Below the pieces are notes generated by a model. That model was not told where the DNA came from. It did not search any database and saw nothing but the letters and a program-made list of their open reading frames with translations. 6,703 nt of DNA from IMG/VR virus record IMGVR_UViG_3300014539_000071, positions 1 through 6,703 of that record; one strand, 5' to 3'. Numbering within the stretch: the first letter of the stretch is position 1; each line of letters opens with the position of its first letter. Positions 1-6,703 of the stretch are shown here, in pieces. The position numbers were made by a program, and so were the translations under genes. This DNA is from a virus. Taxonomy: Duplodnaviria; Heunggongvirae; Uroviricota; Caudoviricetes.

Positions 1-20
1 ATCGCGGTTACTCTGCTAAT
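1..20 (-). CDS. Rz-like i-spanin, N-terminal codons only (gene runs off the left edge of the window)
   Basis: Minus-strand reading of 20..1 gives ATT AGC AGA GTA ACC GCG AT = (I/M)SRVTAI, matching the MSRVTAII start of lambda-type Rz as I recall it. It sits in the expected position overlapping the 3' end of the endolysin. The start codon position is ATT rather than ATG; an in-frame GTG lies at 32..30. Only 6 codons are visible. Confidence 0.3.
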
Positions 21-514
21 TGTTTCCCCCACAAACAGATTTCACGCTCAATCTCACGACGAGTCATGAGACCTTTCCATTGCTTACCGCCAGCATATGT
101 CCAGCGACGTAGCTGATCACATGCGCCTTTGATATCGCCCTGGTTTATTTTGCGAAGAAGCGTCGATGTTCTGAAATTGCCAGCACCCACGTTGTAAACG
201 AATGAGTAAAGAGCGCCGCGCGTTGTTTCCGGTATATCGACTTCGATGTACGGGTTAATTTGTCTGGCGACAGTGGCAAGGTCTTTATTCAAGAGTGCTT
301 TGCATTCTGCTTTGGTATACGTTTTACCGAGCATGATGTCTTTTCCTGTATGCCCGTGACATACAGTCCATACACCAACAATATCTTTGTATGGTATGTA
401 GCTGACACCTTCCAGACCATCGTTACCACTTGGGCCAGTGATTAACACTGATGCTATAGCAATTGCTCCGCCACCAATAGCAGCAGCAACGGCTTTTCGT
501 AATGATGGAGGCAT
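8..514 (-). CDS. rrrD: SAR (signal-anchor-release) endolysin, phage lysozyme of the T4-lysozyme/GH24 type, phage 21 R / DLP12 RrrD-like
   Basis: 168-aa ORF from the track. N-terminal Gly/Ala-rich weakly hydrophobic segment [20 protein letters not shown] typical of a SAR domain. Catalytic E-x8-D-x5-T arrangement in [18 protein letters not shown]. Recognised from memory as near-identical to phage 21 R / E. coli RrrD. Start ATG (514..512) overlaps the holin stop by 1 nt. Confidence 0.93.
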
Positions 515-1300: not shown

Positions 1301-2398
1301 ATGAAAAAATTAACAGTGGCAATTTCTGCTGTAGCTGCATCAGTACTGATGGCGATGTCTGCTCAGGCAGCTGAAATTTATAATAAAGACAGTAACAAGC
1401 TGGATCTGTACGGGAAAGTTAATGCTAAGCACTACTTCTCCTCTAATGATGCAGATGATGGTGATACTACTTATGCCCGTCTTGGCTTCAAAGGTGAAAC
1501 CCAAATCAACGATCAACTGACTGGTTTCGGTCAGTGGGAATATGAATTCAAAGGCAACCGCGCTGAATCTCAAGGTTCCTCCAAAGACAAAACCCGTCTT
1601 GCATTTGCAGGCCTGAAATTCGGTGACTACGGCTCAATCGATTACGGCCGTAACTACGGTGTAGCATACGACATCGGTGCGTGGACTGACGTTCTGCCAG
1701 AATTCGGTGGCGATACCTGGACCCAAACAGATGTGTTCATGACTGGTCGCACCACTGGTGTTGCAACCTATCGTAACAACGACTTCTTTGGTCTGGTTGA
1801 TGGTCTGAACTTTGCTGCTCAGTACCAAGGCAAAAACGATCGTAGCGATTTCGATAACTACACTGAAGGTAACGGTGATGGCTTCGGTTTCTCTGCTACC
1901 TATGAATACGAAGGATTCGGTATCGGTGCAACTTATGCGAAATCTGATCGTACCGACACTCAAGTTAATGCAGGGAAAGTTCTTCCTGAAGTATTTGCTT
2001 CCGGTAAAAATGCAGAAGTTTGGGCCGCAGGTCTGAAATATGACGCTAACAACATTTACCTGGCCACTACCTATTCTGAAACCCAGAATATGACTGTATT
2101 TGCTGATCACTTCGTTGCTAATAAAGCCCAAAACTTCGAAGCTGTTGCACAATATCAGTTCGATTTCGGTCTGCGTCCGTCCGTTGCTTACCTGCAATCT
2201 AAAGGTAAGGATCTTGGAGTATGGGGCGATCAGGACTTAGTCAAATATGTTGATGTAGGTGCAACCTATTACTTCAACAAAAATATGTCTACTTTCGTTG
2301 ATTACAAAATCAACCTGCTTGACAAAAATGACTTCACTAAAGCACTCGGTGTAAGCACTGATGACATCGTTGCTGTAGGTCTGGTTTACCAGTTCTAA
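1301..2398 (+). CDS. nmpC: Outer-membrane general porin of the OmpC/OmpF/PhoE family, NmpC / phage PA-2 Lc-like, apparently intact
   Basis: 365-aa ORF. N-terminal signal peptide [23 protein letters not shown] with AQA|AE cleavage site. Porin hallmarks: AEIYNKD...LDLYGK start of the mature protein and C-terminal ...VAVGLVYQF ending in Phe. Recognised from memory as NmpC/Lc. Opposite strand to the flanking phage genes (moron-like). Confidence 0.93.
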
Positions 2399-3056: not shown

Positions 3057-3197
3057 TCATACTCCTGCTCCTGTCAGGGTTTTGGCGTAATTCTTCAGTA
3101 TTCGGTAATCGGTCAAAACAGAACCGGGGAAACGATATAAGCGCAGACGCCCCCAGCGGTGGCGAAGAAGTTCTGCCATATTAAACTCAAACATCAT
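3057..3197 (-). CDS. ylcG: Small conserved prophage ORF YlcG-like (46 aa)
   Basis: Not in the ORF track (too short). Manual translation of the minus strand gives [46 protein letters not shown], stop TGA 3059..3057. Start ATGATG overlaps the rusA stop codon (ATGA overlap at 3197..3194). Matches my memory of E. coli YlcG and its rusA-ylcG-Q position. Confidence 0.7.
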
Positions 3198-3556
3198 TCA
3201 TTCCCCATTTCGGTGATGGTCAGTTCCAGCCTCCCACCTTTGGTAACAGGCATCTTCACAACGCGGTAATCAACGACCTGAGCATCATCCAGCCAGAAAC
3301 CTGCTTTAGTGAGTGCGTCAAAAGCGGCTTTTTGCAGATTATCCAGGTCACGGCGACGGCGATCCGGCATGTGGCACTCAATGCGGATTTTCACAGGCAT
3401 AGCCAGGCCGATATCCAGCATTGCGTTTTTAATGATTCGGGCGACGTTATCGCGGTATGCCTGCCCCTCTGCGCTGATGTGCGTGCGCCCGCGATTATGG
3501 CGGTAATAGCGATTATTGCTCGGAGGCCAGGGTAATGTGATGCTGTAGGTATTCAC
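3194..3556 (-). CDS. rusA: Holliday-junction resolvase RusA (crossover junction endodeoxyribonuclease)
   Basis: 120-aa [21 protein letters not shown]..., recognised from memory as RusA. Start codon is GTG (3556..3554), preceded by a purine-rich SD AGAGGGGG. Acidic residues within RRRRDLDN are consistent with the RusA active site region. Confidence 0.9.
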
Positions 3557-3559
3557 GCC

Positions 3560-3673
3560 TTAATAACCCCCTCTTTCAGCCAGATAGACGGCCTGCTGTG
3601 AAACTTCGCAGGCAGCGCCTAGTTTCTTTTGTGAACCAACGATATTGATCGCTGTTTTGATGGCTGGGTTCAT
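3560..3673 (-). CDS. Short Cro-like HTH ORF (37 aa), possibly a truncated cro
   Basis: Manual translation: MNPAIKTAINIVGSQKKLGAACEVSQQAVYLAERGGY, stop TAA 3562..3560, 3 nt before the rusA GTG. Strong SD GGAGG (complement of 3679-3683) 5 nt upstream of ATG 3673..3671. GSQKKLGAACEVSQQAVY fits a Cro/CI-type helix-turn-helix, but the ORF ends right after the recognition helix, shorter than typical 60-70 aa Cro proteins. Confidence 0.45.
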   Translation of the reverse strand: MNPAIKTAINIVGSQKKLGAACEVSQQAVYLAERGGY

Positions 3674-3700
3674 AACAACCTCCGTGGTTAATTTGAATCA

Positions 3701-3729
3701 AGATTAAAACTATGGTTGTTTTTAGTCAA
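3701..3729 (-). promoter_or_regulatory. Candidate pR-like sigma-70 promoter driving the Cro-like ORF and rusA-ylcG-Q operon
   Basis: On the minus strand: -35 TTGACT (complement of 3729-3724), exact 17-nt spacer, -10 TAATCT (complement of 3706-3701), then about 25-nt leader to the SD GGAGG and ATG 3673. The -35 and spacer lie inside the palindromic operator at 3712-3736. Confidence 0.45.
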
Positions 3730-3736
3730 CAACCAT
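3712..3736. promoter_or_regulatory. Palindromic operator candidate ATGGTTGTT-N7-AACAACCAT
   Basis: Perfect 9-bp inverted repeat with 7-bp spacer (ATGGTTGTT tttagtc AACAACCAT) centred between the divergent Cro-like and repressor genes. The same half-site (ACAACCA / TGGTTGT) recurs at 3675-3681, 3760-3766 and in a second cluster at 6159-6204. Confidence 0.45.
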
Positions 3737-3742
3737 TTTCGT

Positions 3743-3771
3743 TTGATGAAATAAAACCTTGGTTGTACATT
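3743..3771 (+). promoter_or_regulatory. Candidate pRM-like promoter giving a leaderless repressor mRNA
   Basis: -35 TTGATG (3743-3748), 17-nt spacer, -10 TACATT (3766-3771), placing the transcription start about 7 nt downstream at or near the A of ATG 3778. No Shine-Dalgarno precedes either candidate start (3712 or 3778), as for leaderless lambda cI from pRM. Confidence 0.4.
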
Positions 3772-3777
3772 TGGACT

Positions 3778-4467
3778 ATGAAAACAACACTCTCAGAAAG
3801 ACTTAAAGAAGCCAGATTAGCGCGAGGCCTTACACAAAAGGCGCTTGGGGATTTGGTCGGGGTTAGCCAAGCAGCTATTCAGAAAATCGAAACAGGGAAA
3901 GCTAACCAAACAACTAAAATCGTGGAGATCGCGAACGCTTTGGGTGTGCGCGCAGAATGGTTATCTTCTGGCGTTGGAAATATGTCAGACAGTACAGTGC
4001 AACCAATACAAACAACTGTCAGCCATTCCAAATACTTTAAGATTGACGTTCTTGATATCGAAGTGAGTGCCGGGCCGGGAGTCATCAACCGTGAGTTTGT
4101 AGAAGTTCTACGTTCGGTTGAGTATTCGTTTGACGATGCTCGTCACATGTTCGATGGCAGGAAGGCGGAAAATATCCGTATCATTAACGTACGCGGTGAC
4201 AGCATGTCAGGAACGATCGAACCAGGTGATCTGCTGTTCGTTGATATCACTGTTAAATCTTTCGACGGTGATGGTATCTATGCGTTTCTGTACGACGACA
4301 CAGCCCATGTAAAGCGCCTGCAAATGATGAAGGATAAACTGCTGGTTATCTCTGATAACAAGAGCTACTCACCGTGGGACCCAATCGAGAAAGACGAGAT
4401 GAACCGGGTATTCATCTTCGGGAAAGTCATCGGGAGCATGCCGCAGACGTATAGGAAGCATGGATAA
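3778..4467 (+). CDS. CI/LexA-like repressor: N-terminal XRE-type HTH plus C-terminal S24 autopeptidase domain
   Basis: Track ORF is 3712..4467. I prefer start ATG 3778 (MKTTLSERLKEARLARGLTQKALGDLVGVSQAAIQKIETGK..., 229 aa) because 3712-3777 holds the operator palindrome and pR-like -35. HTH: LTQKALGDLVGVSQAAIQKIETGK. S24 motifs: Ala-Gly candidate cleavage site in VSAGPG (A98-G99 from the 3778 start), nucleophile Ser in RGDSMSG (S142), general-base Lys in HVKRL (K179), with LexA-like Ser-Lys spacing. Confidence 0.85.
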   Translation: MKTTLSERLKEARLARGLTQKALGDLVGVSQAAIQKIETGKANQTTKIVEIANALGVRAEWLSSGVGNMSDSTVQPIQTTVSHSKYFKIDVLDIEVSAGPGVINREFVEVLRSVEYSFDDARHMFDGRKAENIRIINVRGDSMSGTIEPGDLLFVDITVKSFDGDGIYAFLYDDTAHVKRLQMMKDKLLVISDNKSYSPWDPIEKDEMNRVFIFGKVIGSMPQTYRKHG

Positions 4468-4562
4468 TTCGACATAAATTCAACAAGTTAACTTTGGCTT
4501 CAAAAAAGCATCGATAACATTGCATTATATTTTTCCTTTTGTCTAACTTAAAAGGATGAACA

Positions 4563-5288
4563 ATGGAAGAACGTGGGAATTACCTAATAGACCCCCTAGA
4601 AGTAATTGGTTCTGGCGGTTTTGGCCTTGTAGAAAAAATAAGGTTATATAACTCACAAAGAAAAATTTGTGGTCTATATGCCAGAAAAATTTTACGACCT
4701 GATGCAACAGATCCTGAACTCTTTACCAGATTTGAACGAGAAGTAAGATATCAAACTGAATGCCTGCATACTAATATTGTCCAAATATTCATATGCCACT
4801 TACAGAATGCTCAGCCTTGGTTCGTAATGGAACTAGCAGAAACAAATCTTGAAGAAGAAATAAAAAGTGGAACTCTTACAAAGGCTGAAAAAATCTCTAT
4901 TGTAAAAATGGTACTAAATGCCGTCGGATGGATTCATAAGAAAGGATATCTTCATCGGGATATAAAACCACTAAATGTACTAAAATTTAAAGATGGAATT
5001 TATAAGTTATCTGACTTCGGCCTTGCAAAAAATGTGTCACCAGATGCCAATACACAGCTATTAACACAAATTGGCCAATACCCCGCTACTCCTAAATACT
5101 TTGATTACAACGTTTTCCTCAACGGATATTCAAAACAATCAGATATATATTCAATTGGTATTTTAATTGAAGAATTAAATATTGATGGTTTTGATGATAT
5201 AATAAACAAATGTACGCATAGACAACTTAACAAAAGATTCCTGACCGTAGAGCAGATCTTTGAGGAATTGGAGTTGAAACGCTTATGA
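4563..5288 (+). CDS. Compact Hanks-type (eukaryotic-like) Ser/Thr protein kinase, catalytic domain only
   Basis: 241-aa ORF with all core kinase motifs in order: glycine loop GSGGFG, beta3 Lys in YARK, alphaC Glu in FEREV, catalytic loop HRDIKPLN, DFG in SDFGLAK, subdomain IX SDIYSIG. SD AAGGA (4552-4556) 6 nt upstream of the ATG. No extra sensor domain. Low GC by eye relative to the rest of the window. Confidence 0.85.
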   Translation: MEERGNYLIDPLEVIGSGGFGLVEKIRLYNSQRKICGLYARKILRPDATDPELFTRFEREVRYQTECLHTNIVQIFICHLQNAQPWFVMELAETNLEEEIKSGTLTKAEKISIVKMVLNAVGWIHKKGYLHRDIKPLNVLKFKDGIYKLSDFGLAKNVSPDANTQLLTQIGQYPATPKYFDYNVFLNGYSKQSDIYSIGILIEELNIDGFDDIINKCTHRQLNKRFLTVEQIFEELELKRL

Positions 5289-6028
5289 TTAGCATACTCT
5301 CATCATCCATATTTTCTGTACCAAAACATAATGGCAGGGAAAATCAAGATAGCGTGCTTTATCCACTTCAAACACCAAATGGTTATCTTATGGCTATAGC
5401 TGATGGGGTTGGTGGTTATAAAGGAGGAAAAGAAGCATCTGCAGCAGTAATAAATCATTTGTATAGTATTAAAGACAGCTTCACTCATGAAGACAATGTC
5501 TTATCCTTACTTAAGACCCTACAAGAAAAGGTGGCATCTCTTTCGTCAGTTGATAAAGAATTAGCATCTGCTGCTACAACTTTAACAATGTGCCTACTTC
5601 ACAATCAAGGTCTAACAATTATACATGTAGGTGACTGTCGTGTTTATTTAAAAAATGGAAATAAGCTAATCCAATTAACAACAGATCATACTCAACATCA
5701 AATGTTGATAGATAGCGGTATTTATACAGCTCGACAGCTCAAAAATGCAAAAGGTAAAAATATTATTACAACTGCACTTGCTGCCAAGATCCCTCTTCAA
5801 CATCAAGTCATAAATATTGATAAAGATGAACTTCCTCTTGACGATGGTGTTCTATCTCTATTCATCATGTCTGATGGCGCGCATACCTTTTGGGAGCAAC
5901 GCCCACGATTTTCTTACCGTACATTGTCAACCGCATCAAGGTTTGCCTCCAGCCTAATGCGAAGAATAGAGACAAAAGGCCCGACTGACGATTATTCTCT
6001 TATAGCGGTAAATGTAAAGTATTTGTAA
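5285..6028 (+). CDS. PP2C-family (PPM) Ser/Thr protein phosphatase
   Basis: 247-aa ORF. PP2C metal-binding motifs: ENQDS near the N-terminus, DGxGG as ADGVGG, GDSR-like HVGDCRV, LTxDH as LTTDHT, SDG as MSDGAH, and C-terminal DDYSLIAVNV. Start ATG overlaps the kinase stop (ATGA at 5285-5288), implying translational coupling. Confidence 0.8.
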   Translation: MISILSSSIFSVPKHNGRENQDSVLYPLQTPNGYLMAIADGVGGYKGGKEASAAVINHLYSIKDSFTHEDNVLSLLKTLQEKVASLSSVDKELASAATTLTMCLLHNQGLTIIHVGDCRVYLKNGNKLIQLTTDHTQHQMLIDSGIYTARQLKNAKGKNIITTALAAKIPLQHQVINIDKDELPLDDGVLSLFIMSDGAHTFWEQRPRFSYRTLSTASRFASSLMRRIETKGPTDDYSLIAVNVKYL

Positions 6029-6032
6029 ACTT

Positions 6033-6059
6033 CCCGGCCACCGTGCCGGGTTTTCTTTT
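6033..6059 (+). terminator. Intrinsic terminator closing the repressor-kinase-phosphatase operon
   Basis: Stem CCCGGC (6033-6038) pairs with GCCGGG (6045-6050), loop caccgt, followed by TTTTCTTTT (6051-6059), beginning 5 nt after the phosphatase stop. No U-tract on the minus strand, so unidirectional. Confidence 0.7.
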
Positions 6060-6154
6060 ATCCCCTCCCCTCATCACGTATACCGTTCAAAAAACCACCA
6101 CAATCTCCCTTCAGTTATCGCTATGCGATGCAAGTCACAAAATAAATCCATCCT

Positions 6155-6236
6155 AAATACAACCAGTTACATCTAAAACAACCAATAAAACAACTTTTGT
6201 TGTTGACGATAAAACAACTATAGTTTTAAATAAATT
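6155..6236 (+). promoter_or_regulatory. Second operator-like cluster with a candidate pL-like promoter (OL-like region)
   Basis: Repeated half-sites resembling the 3712-3736 operator: ACAACCAG (6159-6166), ACAACCAA (6178-6185), AAAACAACT (6186-6194, 6211-6219). Inverted repeat AACAAC-TTTT-GTTGTT (6189-6204) overlaps a -35-like TTGACG (6203-6208); a weak -10-like TTAAAT follows at 6226-6231 after 17 nt. Promoter call is weak; the half-site clustering is the stronger signal. Confidence 0.3.
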
Positions 6237-6508
6237 CATCGCAACAACACAACGATACGGCAACCACCTGATTCACCGTTGCGATGACCGCTTAGATCCG
6301 CAGCTTGAATTTCAGCAGGCTTCGGGAAGTGCGAGGGGTGAAGCGGACGCGTGAACGTCGGTGTGACCAGCTGAAATCAACTCAACACTTCATACCTCAG
6401 TCGCTTCAACGAGGCGGCTTAGTTATGACAACCGGCGGCCATCCACCGCCTGAATACGCGCAGAAGTCTTTATATGTTCAGCAGCCCAGCTTACGGGCAG
6501 GAGTTTTT

Positions 6509-6703
6509 ATGGTTCATCAACATTACGGAACGCAGACCGTTAATCGCGGTGCGGTCATGCCAGGAATGCTGGTCAAACACAAAGATGGTACCTGGACTGC
6601 ATCAGCTAATTTATGCGGACGGCTATATCTGCATCGCGGCATCGAGCGCACTTATACCCGTGATTTGCTCGTGGAAGTTTTTCTCGACGGACGAGGCAAC
6701 GGC
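6509..6703 (+). CDS. 5' part of an ORF of unknown function running off the right edge of the window
   Basis: The frame is open from 6296 to the window end. ATG 6509 has a strong SD AGGAG (6499-6503) with 5-nt spacer and gives MVHQHYGTQTVNRGAVMPGMLVKHKDGTWTASANLCGRLYLHRGIERTYTRDLLVEVFLDGRGNG... An alternative in-frame ATG at 6425 has a weaker SD. Not in the ORF track, presumably because it has no stop inside the window. I do not recognise the product. Confidence 0.35.
   Translation, partial: MVHQHYGTQTVNRGAVMPGMLVKHKDGTWTASANLCGRLYLHRGIERTYTRDLLVEVFLDGRGNG

What the first reader, a model, noticed from the sequence alone, without database searches (positions are those of the whole stretch)
6155..6236. 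Second cluster of the same operator half-sites downstream of the phosphatase (OL-like), bracketing the operon as OR and OL bracket cI-rexAB in lambda
Seen directly: the heptamer ACAACCA or close variants (AAAACAACC/T) occur four times in about 60 bp (6159-6219), plus an inverted pair AACAAC-TTTT-GTTGTT overlapping a -35-like TTGACG. The heptamer is otherwise rare in the window (one stray ACAACCT at 2482-2488). Inference: the repressor binds here too, controlling a pL-like promoter reading into the next plus-strand ORF (6425 or 6509 onward). Two operator clusters could also allow cooperative looping. This supports the whole 3700-6240 block being a transplanted immunity region with the kinase-phosphatase pair as cargo.
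Basis: partly seen in the sequence, partly recalled or inferred. Interest (0 to 1): 0.55.

Follow-up and report, generated by a model that had tools for sequence, protein, structure and literature searches.

The report
Prophage left operator and early promoter
This 95-base stretch is very probably the second set of repressor-binding sites (OL) and the leftward early promoter (pL) of a lambda-like prophage, keeping a host-killing gene silent; this is ordinary phage biology in an uncharacterised immunity type.

Summary
ACAACCA occurs five times in the window, all in 3713-3766 and 6159-6184 (expected 1.08). The fuller dyad ACAAC-N4-GTTKT matches only in those two regions (11 matches vs 1.11 expected).

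The main interpretation holds on comparative evidence. Window ~6144-6238 is a self-contained, immunity-specific block. Related phages with a different cI helix-turn-helix, cro and OR carry an unrelated sequence at exactly this place. That sequence holds their own OR motif, between near-identical flanks. In 111 loci, cI N-terminal type and block type pair perfectly (58 A/A, 53 B/B, 0 mixed), although at least 10 cargo types between them occur with both.

Two 14-bp operators lie 24 bp apart: OL1 at 6214-6227 and OL2 at 6190-6203. They overlap a promoter, TTGACG-17-TTAAAT, which aligns with TTGATA-17-TATTAT in the other immunity type. The promoter reads through a 271-nt leader into kil-gam-bet-exo. 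No N gene is present.

One amendment: 3700-6240 is not a single transplanted block. It is three independently exchanged modules: cro-OR-cI N-terminus, a cargo slot, and the OL block.

No binding or promoter assay exists. This is a new member of a known kind. In passing I found a strongly covarying RNA hairpin at 6399-6419.

The parts
6033..6060 (+). Intrinsic terminator ending the cI-kinase-phosphatase (pRM) transcript: stem 6033-6050 plus a T tract.
   Evidence: 6 G-C pairs, TTTTCTTTT tail. It is conserved in all relatives whatever the cargo.
6144..6238 (+). Immunity-specific OL/pL block, the real extent of the finding.
   Evidence: Identity between immunity types A and B is 42% here, against 95% in the leader and 80% in the upstream spacer. 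Block type pairs with cI N-terminal type 58/53/0.
6159..6165 (+). Lone ACAACCA half-site, a candidate auxiliary or OL3 site with no convincing dyad partner.
   Evidence: It is conserved among 27 type-A haplotypes, with 1 variant.
6178..6184 (+). Second lone ACAACCA half-site, poorly conserved and probably not essential.
   Evidence: Variants AAAAAAACC, AAAGCAACC and AAAACAGCC occur among relatives.
6190..6203 (.). OL2: the perfect 14-bp dyad ACAAC-TTTT-GTTGT, abutting the -35 hexamer.
   Evidence: Zero mismatches on both strands and nearly invariant among haplotypes. Its centre lies 24 bp from that of OL1.
6203..6208 (+). pL -35 hexamer TTGACG.
   Evidence: Read from the sequence. It aligns column for column with TTGATA of the type-B promoter and with the pR -35 TTGACT.
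6214..6227 (.). OL1: ACAACTATAGTTTT, lying between the -35 and -10 hexamers. It is the paralogue of OR1 (ACAACCATAGTTTT).
   Evidence: Nearly invariant.
6226..6231 (+). Probable pL -10 hexamer TTAAAT with a 17-bp spacer. The predicted transcription start is about 6238.
   Evidence: It occupies the same columns as TATTAT in type B (10/12 promoter). In one search and sequences the hexamer-to-leader spacing is constant: hexamer + 5 nt + CATCG in type C, Enterobacter B-like loci and phi80. It is weak by consensus and the scan did not report it.
6238..6508 (+). 271-nt leader of the early-left transcript, shared by immunity types A and B.
   Evidence: 95% A-B identity over 6238-6424. No terminator-like site lies between the cargo terminator (6033-6050) and a site at 6658-6674 inside kil. 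No Rfam match. Fold z-score -0.73.
6399..6419 (+). Conserved RNA hairpin: stem 6399-6404 / 6414-6419, loop UUCAACGAG.
   Evidence: All 6 pairs have compensatory changes in 13 sequences from Escherichia, Klebsiella, Citrobacter, Enterobacter, Huaxiibacter and phi80. 98.7% of cells are paired against 57% in shuffles and 24-50% when slid.
6425..6448 (+). Strongly conserved element ATGACAACCGGCGGCCATCCACCG; the coding sequence after it diverges between relatives.
   Evidence: The first 23 bases were the search pattern, so their invariance among the loci is by selection. Independent support: the megablast matches to phi80, Klebsiella and Enterobacter phages and the phi80 sequence.
6509..6703 (+). 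kil (cell-division inhibitor), first gene of the pL operon, cut by the end of the window.
   Evidence: PHROG 294 at E 1.3e-37 on the full-length orthologue. RefSeq annotation, followed by gam-bet-exo. The start was verified by the stop-codon survey.
3706..3766 (.). OR1 (3706-3719), OR2 (3729-3742) and OR3 (3753-3766) with the same dyad; centres are 23 and 24 bp apart.
3778..4467 (+). cI repressor: HTH_3 plus Peptidase_S24.
   Evidence: Pfam. PHROG 4 at E 8.6e-73. The N-terminal domain is closest to the 434 repressor among solved structures, E 4.5e-9.
3560..3673 (-). Truncated cro: 37 of 76 codons.
4563..6028 (+). Cargo between cI and the terminator: Ser/Thr kinase (4563-5288) and PP2C phosphatase (5285-6028).
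   Evidence: Pfam. It forms one of more than 14 interchangeable cargo clusters. The kinase is 25.7% identical to stk of Stx phages.

Best explanation
Window ~6144-6238 is the left operator/early-left promoter (OL/pL) of a lambda-like prophage of the DLP12/Bievrevirus type. The most similar complete-genome copy (L003) is integrated at icd.

Proposed mechanism:
- cI (3778-4467) is a repressor with a 434-like helix-turn-helix. Dimers bind two 14-bp dyads, OL1 (6214-6227) and OL2 (6190-6203), whose centres are 24 bp apart.
- OL1 fills the spacer and reaches the -10 hexamer of a sigma-70 promoter, TTGACG(6203-6208)-17-TTAAAT(6226-6231). OL2 abuts the -35 hexamer. Bound repressor therefore excludes RNA polymerase.
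- When repressor is cleaved after DNA damage, transcription starts near 6238. It runs through a 271-nt leader into kil and then, in intact relatives, gam-bet-exo-xis-int.
- Cro presumably uses the same sites.
- The two lone ACAACCA copies upstream (6159, 6178) may be weak auxiliary sites.
- The terminator at 6033-6050 insulates pL from the constitutive cI-kinase-phosphatase transcript.

Shown here: motif enrichment, dyad structure and phasing, the paralogy of pL with pR, co-variation of the block with the repressor's DNA-binding domain, and the identity of the downstream genes.

Inferred: repressor binding, promoter activity, the start site, cooperativity and looping.
For: 1. The motif is confined to two clusters. 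In a whole 47-kb relative, every position-weight-matrix score of 14 or more is at the orthologous OR and OL sites. That matrix was built from the window's own five sites, so the test is partly circular.
2. A natural swap experiment: phages 4A7, Perceval and PhiR70_1 differ in the cI helix-turn-helix, cro and OR. They replace exactly this ~95 bp with unrelated sequence between near-identical flanks. Their block carries AATAGC-N4-GCTATT, which is otherwise found only in their own OR.
3. In 111 loci the pairing is 58 A/A, 53 B/B and 0 mixed, although at least 10 cargo clusters occur with both types. This shows repeated recombination between the two modules.
4. A third immunity type in Citrobacter and Enterobacter (ATCGC-N4-GCGAT) shows the same rule. 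In each of the 6 loci tested, the 100-bp stretch sharing most 7-mers with that locus's own OR (14-28 against a median of 1-2) lies upstream of the leader and ends at its start.
5. The promoter: TTGACG-17-TTAAAT occupies the same columns as the 10/12 promoter TTGATA-17-TATTAT of type B. The core is a paralogue of pR, GTTGTTGAC..AAAACAAC[T/C]ATAGTTTTAA. In the type C, Enterobacter B-like and phi80 sequences the hexamer lies a constant 5 nt before the conserved CATCG leader start; types A and B align column for column.
6. The phi80 GenBank record annotates a 92-bp 'O-L region' of similar layout.
7. The downstream gene is kil, followed by gam-bet-exo in relatives.
8. The cI N-terminal domain aligns without gaps to the 434 repressor, E 4.5e-9. 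OL2 fits the 434 operator form ACAA-N6-TTGT, which I recall from established knowledge of 434.
Against: - There is no experimental binding, footprint, start-site or reporter data for this immunity type, and none was found in the paper library.
- The proposed -10 hexamer TTAAAT lacks the highly conserved A at position 2, so the consensus scan did not report a plus-strand promoter here.
- The alternative TTGTTG-16-TATAGT cannot be excluded.
- Only two of the four heptamer copies form dyads. The other two have no partner, and one is not conserved.
- The 111 loci are mostly closely related E. coli prophages, so the perfect linkage rests on roughly 10 or more independent recombination events rather than 111.
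- cro type co-varies with cI type, so the comparison cannot say which of the two proteins binds.
Confidence: 0.85

Rival explanations
1. The block is an immunity-specific promoter-operator, but it is used by Cro (the YdaS-like HTH protein) or by another immunity-linked factor rather than by cI. On this reading it acts as a lytic-phase down-regulator, not as the lysogenic lock on pL.
For: cro type co-varies with the block exactly as the cI N-terminal type does. Cro of the intact relative is an HTH protein.
Against: In lambdoid phages cI and Cro share operators (established knowledge). The same dyads sit in OR in the positions expected for cI control of pR and pRM, at the 23-24 bp phasing typical of cooperative cI binding. 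In this window cro is truncated, yet the OL block differs from the commonest type-A haplotype only at two positions that vary among relatives.
Confidence: 0.06
2. The repeats drive or regulate a leftward (minus-strand) promoter that reads antisense into the phosphatase. The candidate is TTGCGA(6244-6239)-16-TATAGT(6222-6217).
For: The consensus scan reports this 9/12 minus-strand match.
Against: The match arises because AACTATAGTT is a palindrome. In type-B phages the equivalent hexamers are only 6 bp apart, so the promoter is not conserved. No leftward gene or terminator fits it.
Confidence: 0.03
3. The cluster is a set of iterons or a recombination or packaging site: direct repeats bound by a replication or recombination protein.
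For: Two ACAACCA copies are direct repeats 19 bp apart. phi80 has three direct AAATCAAC copies in the same place.
Against: The motif is shared with the cro-cI intergenic region and co-varies with the repressor's HTH, not with the O/P replication genes, which are the same in types A and B. In this window the replication genes are deleted, yet the block differs from the commonest type-A haplotype only at two naturally variable positions.
Confidence: 0.02
4. The cluster is a chance feature of an AT-rich, low-complexity intergenic stretch with no sequence-specific function.
For: The region is A-rich, and the heptamer alone is only about 2-fold enriched phage-wide.
Against: 0 of 200 shuffles reach the observed counts. 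Other windows share far fewer 7-mers with OL. OL1 and OL2 are almost invariant among 27 haplotypes while neighbouring bases vary. The swap with cI type is perfect.
Confidence: 0.02

Closest known systems
Phage lambda OL/pL (three operators overlapping pL, downstream of cI-rexA-rexB)
   Same: A second operator cluster with the same consensus as OR. It lies after the repressor gene plus lysogen-expressed cargo and a terminator, and it overlaps the promoter of the early-left operon. The OR-OL distance here is about 2.46 kb, similar to lambda's ~2.3-2.4 kb (from memory).
   Different: The operator sequence is unrelated: a 14-bp ACAAC-N4-GTTKT dyad rather than lambda's 17-bp site. Only two clear dyads are present, plus lone half-sites. 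There is no N gene in the complete relative and no boxB-like hairpin was seen in the leader by eye; pL reads through a 271-nt leader straight into kil. The OR-OL distance varies from about 1.0 to about 2.6 kb among relatives, depending on cargo.
Phage phi80 'O-L region' (GenBank X13065, annotated misc_feature)
   Same: Same lineage and position. It is a 92-bp block of repeated motif copies, including upstream direct-repeat copies without dyad partners. It ends in TTGACC-17-TTTAAT followed by a CATCG leader start. Further downstream lie the same hairpin and the same ATGACAACCGGCGGCCATCCACCG element.
   Different: The motif differs (AAATCAAC/AAATCCAC). phi80 also has a ~400-nt leader, an 'N' gene and an intrinsic terminator between pL and the hairpin, all absent here.
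Phage 434 repressor and its 14-bp operators (ACAA-N6-TTGT)
   Same: The cI N-terminal domain aligns without gaps to the 434 repressor, E 4.5e-9. Operator length is 14 bp, and OL2 (ACAACTTTTGTTGT) fits ACAA-N6-TTGT exactly.
   Different: The recognition helix differs: 434 has TQQSIEQLENG and this cI has SQAAIQKIETG. The fifth base, C, is conserved. Most sites carry GTTTT in the second half. Specificity is therefore almost certainly distinct (heteroimmune).
Immunity regions of 933W and other Stx phages carrying stk next to cI; more generally the cI-to-N mosaic hotspot (rexAB, bstA)
   Same: A eukaryote-like kinase is encoded directly downstream of cI, inside the OR-OL bracket. A published paper describes this site as a hotspot of mosaic diversity that holds abortive-infection genes (PMC8585504).
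   Different: The kinase is only 25.7% identical to stk and is paired with a PP2C phosphatase. No defence function has been tested.

Membership tests
Lambdoid OL/pL operator-promoter region | Several copies of a dyad-symmetric site sharing the consensus of the OR sites of the same phage. | tested here: met
   ACAAC-N4-GTTKT occurs only in 3675-3766 and 6187-6227, with 11 matches against 1.11 expected. OL and OR share 16 7-mers against a mean of 1.54 elsewhere.
Lambdoid OL/pL operator-promoter region | It lies downstream of the repressor gene (plus lysogeny cargo) and reads away from it into the early-left recombination operon. | tested here: met
   The order is cI, cargo, terminator, block, kil, gam, bet, exo, xis, int in L001, L002 and L003. 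kil is confirmed by PHROG 294.
Lambdoid OL/pL operator-promoter region | The operators overlap the -35 and -10 hexamers of a sigma-70 promoter. | tested here: inconclusive
   TTGACG-17-TTAAAT is flanked and overlapped by OL2 and OL1. It is position-equivalent to a 10/12 promoter in type B. However, its own -10 hexamer is weak and the scan did not report it.
Lambdoid OL/pL operator-promoter region | Operator sequence changes together with repressor specificity (the immunity module). | tested here: met
   58 A/A, 53 B/B and 0 mixed, with cargo shuffled between types. A third type follows the same rule.
Lambdoid OL/pL operator-promoter region | The repressor binds the sites and represses transcription. 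| not testable with these tools
   This needs EMSA or footprinting and reporter assays.
Lambda-type pL-nutL-N antitermination unit | An N gene and a boxA/boxB nut site immediately downstream of pL. | tested here: not met
   No N is annotated in the complete relative PhiR47_2. No Rfam match. The arginine-rich upstream reading frame is broken by stop codons in more than half of the loci. The conserved hairpin occurs once per genome, so there is no nutR partner.
434-type repressor/operator pair | An HTH domain homologous to the 434 repressor. | tested here: met
   E 4.5e-9 with a gapless alignment over residues 5-68.
434-type repressor/operator pair | The same recognition-helix residues and hence the same immunity as 434. 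| tested here: not met
   SQAAIQK here against TQQSIEQ in 434, from the alignment.
OR-OL long-range loop (lambda cI octamer) | Cooperative contact between repressors bound at OR and at OL. | not testable with these tools
   Only the geometry is known: about 2.46 kb here and about 1.0 kb in cargo-free relatives.

The most novel reading that the evidence does not exclude
pL here drives an N-independent early-left operon. Its near-invariant leader carries an undescribed cis-acting RNA element: the covarying hairpin at 6399-6419 plus the strongly conserved 24-nt ATGACAACCGGCGGCCATCCACCG. This element is shared by phi80 and by prophages of Citrobacter, Enterobacter, Klebsiella and Escherichia, and it might control read-through, processing or translation of kil and the recombination genes. 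Separately, the lone direct-repeat half-sites upstream of OL2, which phi80 also has, could be a distinct auxiliary-operator architecture.
Probability: 0.25. Interest if true: 0.5.

Novelty: new member of a known kind. Interest (0 to 1): 0.3.

Why it matters
The region is widespread: 2,225 of 5,426 complete E. coli genomes match window 6030-6520, which spans the terminator, the operator block (A or B type), the leader and the start of kil. I found no paper describing the operators of this immunity type. The work defines them (ACAAC-N4-GTTKT), together with a second and a third heteroimmune type. It also shows, as a clean natural experiment, that a 95-bp OL block is kept matched to the repressor's DNA-binding domain while the cargo between them is freely exchanged.

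Practically, this delimits the cargo slot (cI stop to the terminator at 6033) in which the kinase-phosphatase pair and many toxin-like or defence-like cassettes sit. It also predicts which prophages are co-immune. None of this changes the textbook picture, so the finding is ordinary in kind.

Tried and rejected
- **Rfam.** The window at E up to 1, and 12 related loci at gathering score, gave no family.
- **Whole-leader fold.** The z-score is -0.73, so there is no unusual overall stability and no support for a large structured (put-like) RNA.
- **N-like reading.** The frame open from 6296 encodes KRTRERRCDQ, which resembles the arginine-rich motif of lambda N as I recall it. It is broken by a stop at about 6398 in more than half of the loci, and in relatives it runs through a hairpin that follows a terminator. 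I rejected it.
- **nutL/nutR idea for the hairpin.** Only one copy exists per phage genome.
- **ORF start at 6425.** It is not conserved; 6509 is the conserved kil start.
- **'One transplanted block 3700-6240'.** Homology breakpoints at 3911 and at ~6144/6238 reject it.
- **OL3 at 24-bp phasing.** The sequence at 6166-6179 is not a dyad, so no OL3 could be assigned.
- **Literature.** Searches for the PhiR phages, GevT/HipD cargo, Bievrevirus and this operator type found no paper describing it. Two searches failed on term length.
- **Ungapped identity beyond about 6390.** These figures are unreliable because of indels, so I do not use them.

Full report
**1. What the window is**

The window is a piece of a lambda-like prophage. 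In order it holds:
- an endolysin (8-514, minus strand) and a holin (514-729, minus)
- a porin gene (1301-2398, plus)
- Q (2588-2986, minus) and rusA (3194-3556, minus)
- a truncated cro (3560-3673, minus)
- a cI repressor with HTH_3 and Peptidase_S24 domains (3778-4467, plus)
- a Ser/Thr kinase (4563-5288) and a PP2C phosphatase (5285-6028)
- an intrinsic terminator (6033-6050)
- the region of the finding, then a leader, then the start of kil (6509 onward)

Intact relatives include phages PhiR47_2, PhiR34_1, PhiR5_1, 4A7 and Perceval, and a prophage at icd in E. coli ChlosBP-23-1. Their gene order is cII-O-P on the cro side and kil-gam-bet-exo-...-xis-int on the other side. Window 6030-6520 matches 2,225 of 5,426 complete E. 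coli genomes.

**2. The observation**

- ACAACCA occurs five times, only in 3713-3766 and 6159-6184, against 1.08 expected.
- The dyad ACAAC-N4-GTTKT with up to one mismatch gives 11 matches on six sites. All lie in 3675-3766 and 6187-6227, against 1.11 expected.
- A test with no motif chosen in advance agrees. The OL and OR stretches share 16 distinct 7-mers, against a mean of 1.54 (maximum 7) for 307 other windows of the same sequence.
- In the 47-kb genome of PhiR47_2 the bare heptamer is unremarkable (12 against 5.8). Every position-weight-matrix score of 14 or more is at the orthologous OR and OL sites, though the matrix was built from the window's own sites.

**3. Anatomy**

Two sites are clear 14-bp dyads:
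- OL2, ACAAC-TTTT-GTTGT (6190-6203)
- OL1, ACAACTATAGTTTT (6214-6227)

Their centres are 24 bp apart. OR holds three equivalent sites, at 3706-3719, 3729-3742 and 3753-3766, spaced 23 and 24 bp apart. A fourth match lies over the cro ribosome-binding site (3675-3688).

The pL core (plus strand) and the pR core (minus strand) are paralogues, sharing GTTGTTGAC..AAAACAAC[T/C]ATAGTTTTAA. OL2 abuts the -35 hexamer TTGACG (6203-6208). OL1 fills the spacer and runs into TTAAAT (6226-6231).

Among 27 type-A haplotypes OL1 and OL2 are almost invariant, while 6208-6210, 6232-6234 and the 6178 heptamer copy vary. The copies at 6159 and 6178 have no dyad partner. I could not define an OL3.

**4. The decisive comparative evidence**

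Phages 4A7, Perceval and PhiR70_1 become homologous to the window only from 3911, inside cI after the helix-turn-helix. They therefore have a different cro, OR and cI DNA-binding domain. They are again near-identical from 6032 onward, except for about 95 bp (window ~6144-6238), which is replaced by unrelated sequence.

Identity between the two immunity types is 42% in that block. It is 95% in the leader and about 80% in the spacer on the other side. The replacement block carries AATAGC-N4-GCTATT, found otherwise only in those phages' own OR. It also carries a 10/12 promoter, TTGATA-17-TATTAT, in exactly the alignment columns of TTGACG-17-TTAAAT.

In 111 loci that share the leader, cI N-terminal type and block type pair 58 A/A, 53 B/B and 0 mixed. 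At least ten clusters of the intervening cargo occur with both types, so recombination between the two modules has happened repeatedly without a mismatched pair surviving in the sample.

In Citrobacter and Enterobacter a third type (ATCGC-N4-GCGAT) behaves the same way. In each of the six loci tested, the stretch sharing most 7-mers with that locus's own OR lies upstream of the leader and ends at its start. In the type C, Enterobacter B-like and phi80 sequences the -10-like hexamer sits 5 nt before a conserved CATCG leader start, and types A and B align column for column. This places the start near 6238.

The phi80 GenBank record annotates a 92-bp 'O-L region' of similar layout.

**5. Mechanism**

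The best reading is the classical one. cI dimers at OL1 and OL2 occlude pL and keep kil, a cell-division inhibitor (PHROG 294), and the recombination genes silent in the lysogen. RecA-stimulated self-cleavage of the S24 domain would lift the block. Cro presumably binds the same sites.

In this window cro is truncated and cII through ybcO are deleted (section 8). Repression of kil by cI is then probably what keeps the cI-OR-OL circuit under selection. This is inference.

The cI N-terminal domain is closest to the 434 repressor among solved structures, E 4.5e-9. OL2 fits the 434 form ACAA-N6-TTGT, which I recall from memory. The recognition helix differs, so the specificity should be its own.

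**6.

- The block 3700-6240 is not a single transplanted unit. Only cro-OR-cI N-terminus and the 95-bp OL block are immunity-specific. The cI C-terminal domain, terminator, spacer and leader are common to both types.
- The kinase-phosphatase pair (4 loci, all type A) is one of more than 14 alternative cargos. About two dozen loci have an empty slot. A published paper describes this site as a mosaic hotspot that holds rexAB and bstA (PMC8585504).
- The gene read into starts at 6509, not 6425.
- Looping is untested.

**7. Weak points**

- There is no binding or expression experiment.
- The -10 hexamer is poor by consensus and the scan missed it. TTGTTG-16-TATAGT remains an alternative.
- The loci are not independent samples.
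- cI and Cro cannot be told apart by co-variation.

**8. Side observations**

- There is no N gene in the complete relative and no Rfam match.
- A hairpin at 6399-6404 / 6414-6419 with loop UUCAACGAG shows compensatory changes at all six pairs across 13 sequences from several genera and phi80. It is 98.7% paired, against 57% in shuffles. It occurs once per genome.
- The hairpin is followed by the strongly conserved ATGACAACCGGCGGCCATCCACCG. Most of that string was my search pattern, so its invariance among the loci is by selection. The matches and the phi80 sequence are independent.
- In relatives the hairpin follows a strong terminator that ends a variable gene slot (phi80 'N'). Here that slot is absent.
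- The cro/ybcO deletion junction at 3584-3586 is in none of the 5,426 complete E. coli genomes.

**9. Verdict**

It is a new member of a well-known kind, and interest is modest.

Noticed in passing
window 6399-6419: RNA hairpin with a 6-bp stem and loop UUCAACGAG, preceded by CAUACC. All six pairs covary across Escherichia, Klebsiella, Citrobacter, Enterobacter, Huaxiibacter prophages and phi80: 98.7% paired against 57% in shuffles. There is one copy per phage genome and no Rfam family. Function unknown.
   Followed up: yes
window 6425-6448: ATGACAACCGGCGGCCATCCACCG is conserved across these relatives, although the reading frame that starts at its ATG diverges or stops soon afterwards in different phages. 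This looks like nucleotide-level rather than protein-level conservation. It includes a possible GGCGG/CCGCC stem. The first 23 bases were my search pattern; the matches are independent.
   Followed up: partly
window 3584-3586: A deletion junction. cro is cut to 37 of 76 codons and joined to the 3' end of ybcO next to rusA, removing cII, O, P, ren and the nin region. The prophage is therefore defective. No complete E. coli genome of 5,426 carries this junction.
   Followed up: partly
window 4468-6032 and loci L008-L127: The slot between the cI stop codon and the terminator is a cargo hotspot. It shows more than 14 unrelated cargo clusters of 0.9-1.8 kb and an empty state of 116 bp. At least 10 clusters are shared by both immunity types. 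Deposited annotations include GevT/GevA and HipA/HipD toxin-antitoxin pairs.
   Followed up: partly
window 6051-6143, especially 6110-6143: The spacer between the terminator and the OL block is shared by immunity types A and B and is nearly invariant in its right half. It holds the palindrome ATCGC-TAT-GCGAT (6117-6129). This resembles the type-C operator half-sites (ATCGC-N4-GCGAT) but with a spacer one base shorter. Function unknown.
   Followed up: no
window 6296-6508: An open frame in phase with kil encodes an arginine-rich stretch (KRTRERRCDQ) reminiscent of the lambda N RNA-binding motif. It is broken by a stop near 6398 in more than half of the related loci, so it is probably not coding.
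   Followed up: yes
window 3675-3688: A fourth operator-like dyad (ACAACCTCCGTGGT) lies over the cro Shine-Dalgarno sequence, 31 bp from OR1. It might add repression downstream of the pR start, over the cro ribosome-binding site.
   Followed up: no
window 3743-3780: A possible pRM, TTGATG(3743-3748)-17-TACATT(3766-3771), would start transcription at the A of the cI ATG (3778). The cI mRNA would then be leaderless, as in lambda, with OR2 abutting the -35 hexamer. This is read from the sequence only and falls below the scan threshold.
   Followed up: no
L128 (PhiR47_2, whole genome); window 6238-6508: No N-like antiterminator gene is annotated anywhere in the complete relative. No terminator-like site lies between the cargo terminator (6033-6050) and a site at 6658-6674 inside kil, so kil at least needs no antitermination.
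   Followed up: partly
window 1301-2398: An OmpC/NmpC-like porin gene sits between Q and the lysis genes on the opposite strand, as I recall for the DLP12 prophage of K-12. It is a lysogenic-conversion style cargo.
   Followed up: no
L131, L137, L135, L144, L145: Citrobacter and Enterobacter prophages carry a third immunity type (operators ATCGC-N4-GCGAT) and a B-like type. Both are joined to a phi80-like leader that contains a conserved 5' UTR, a variable gene slot and a conserved terminator ahead of the hairpin.
   Followed up: partly
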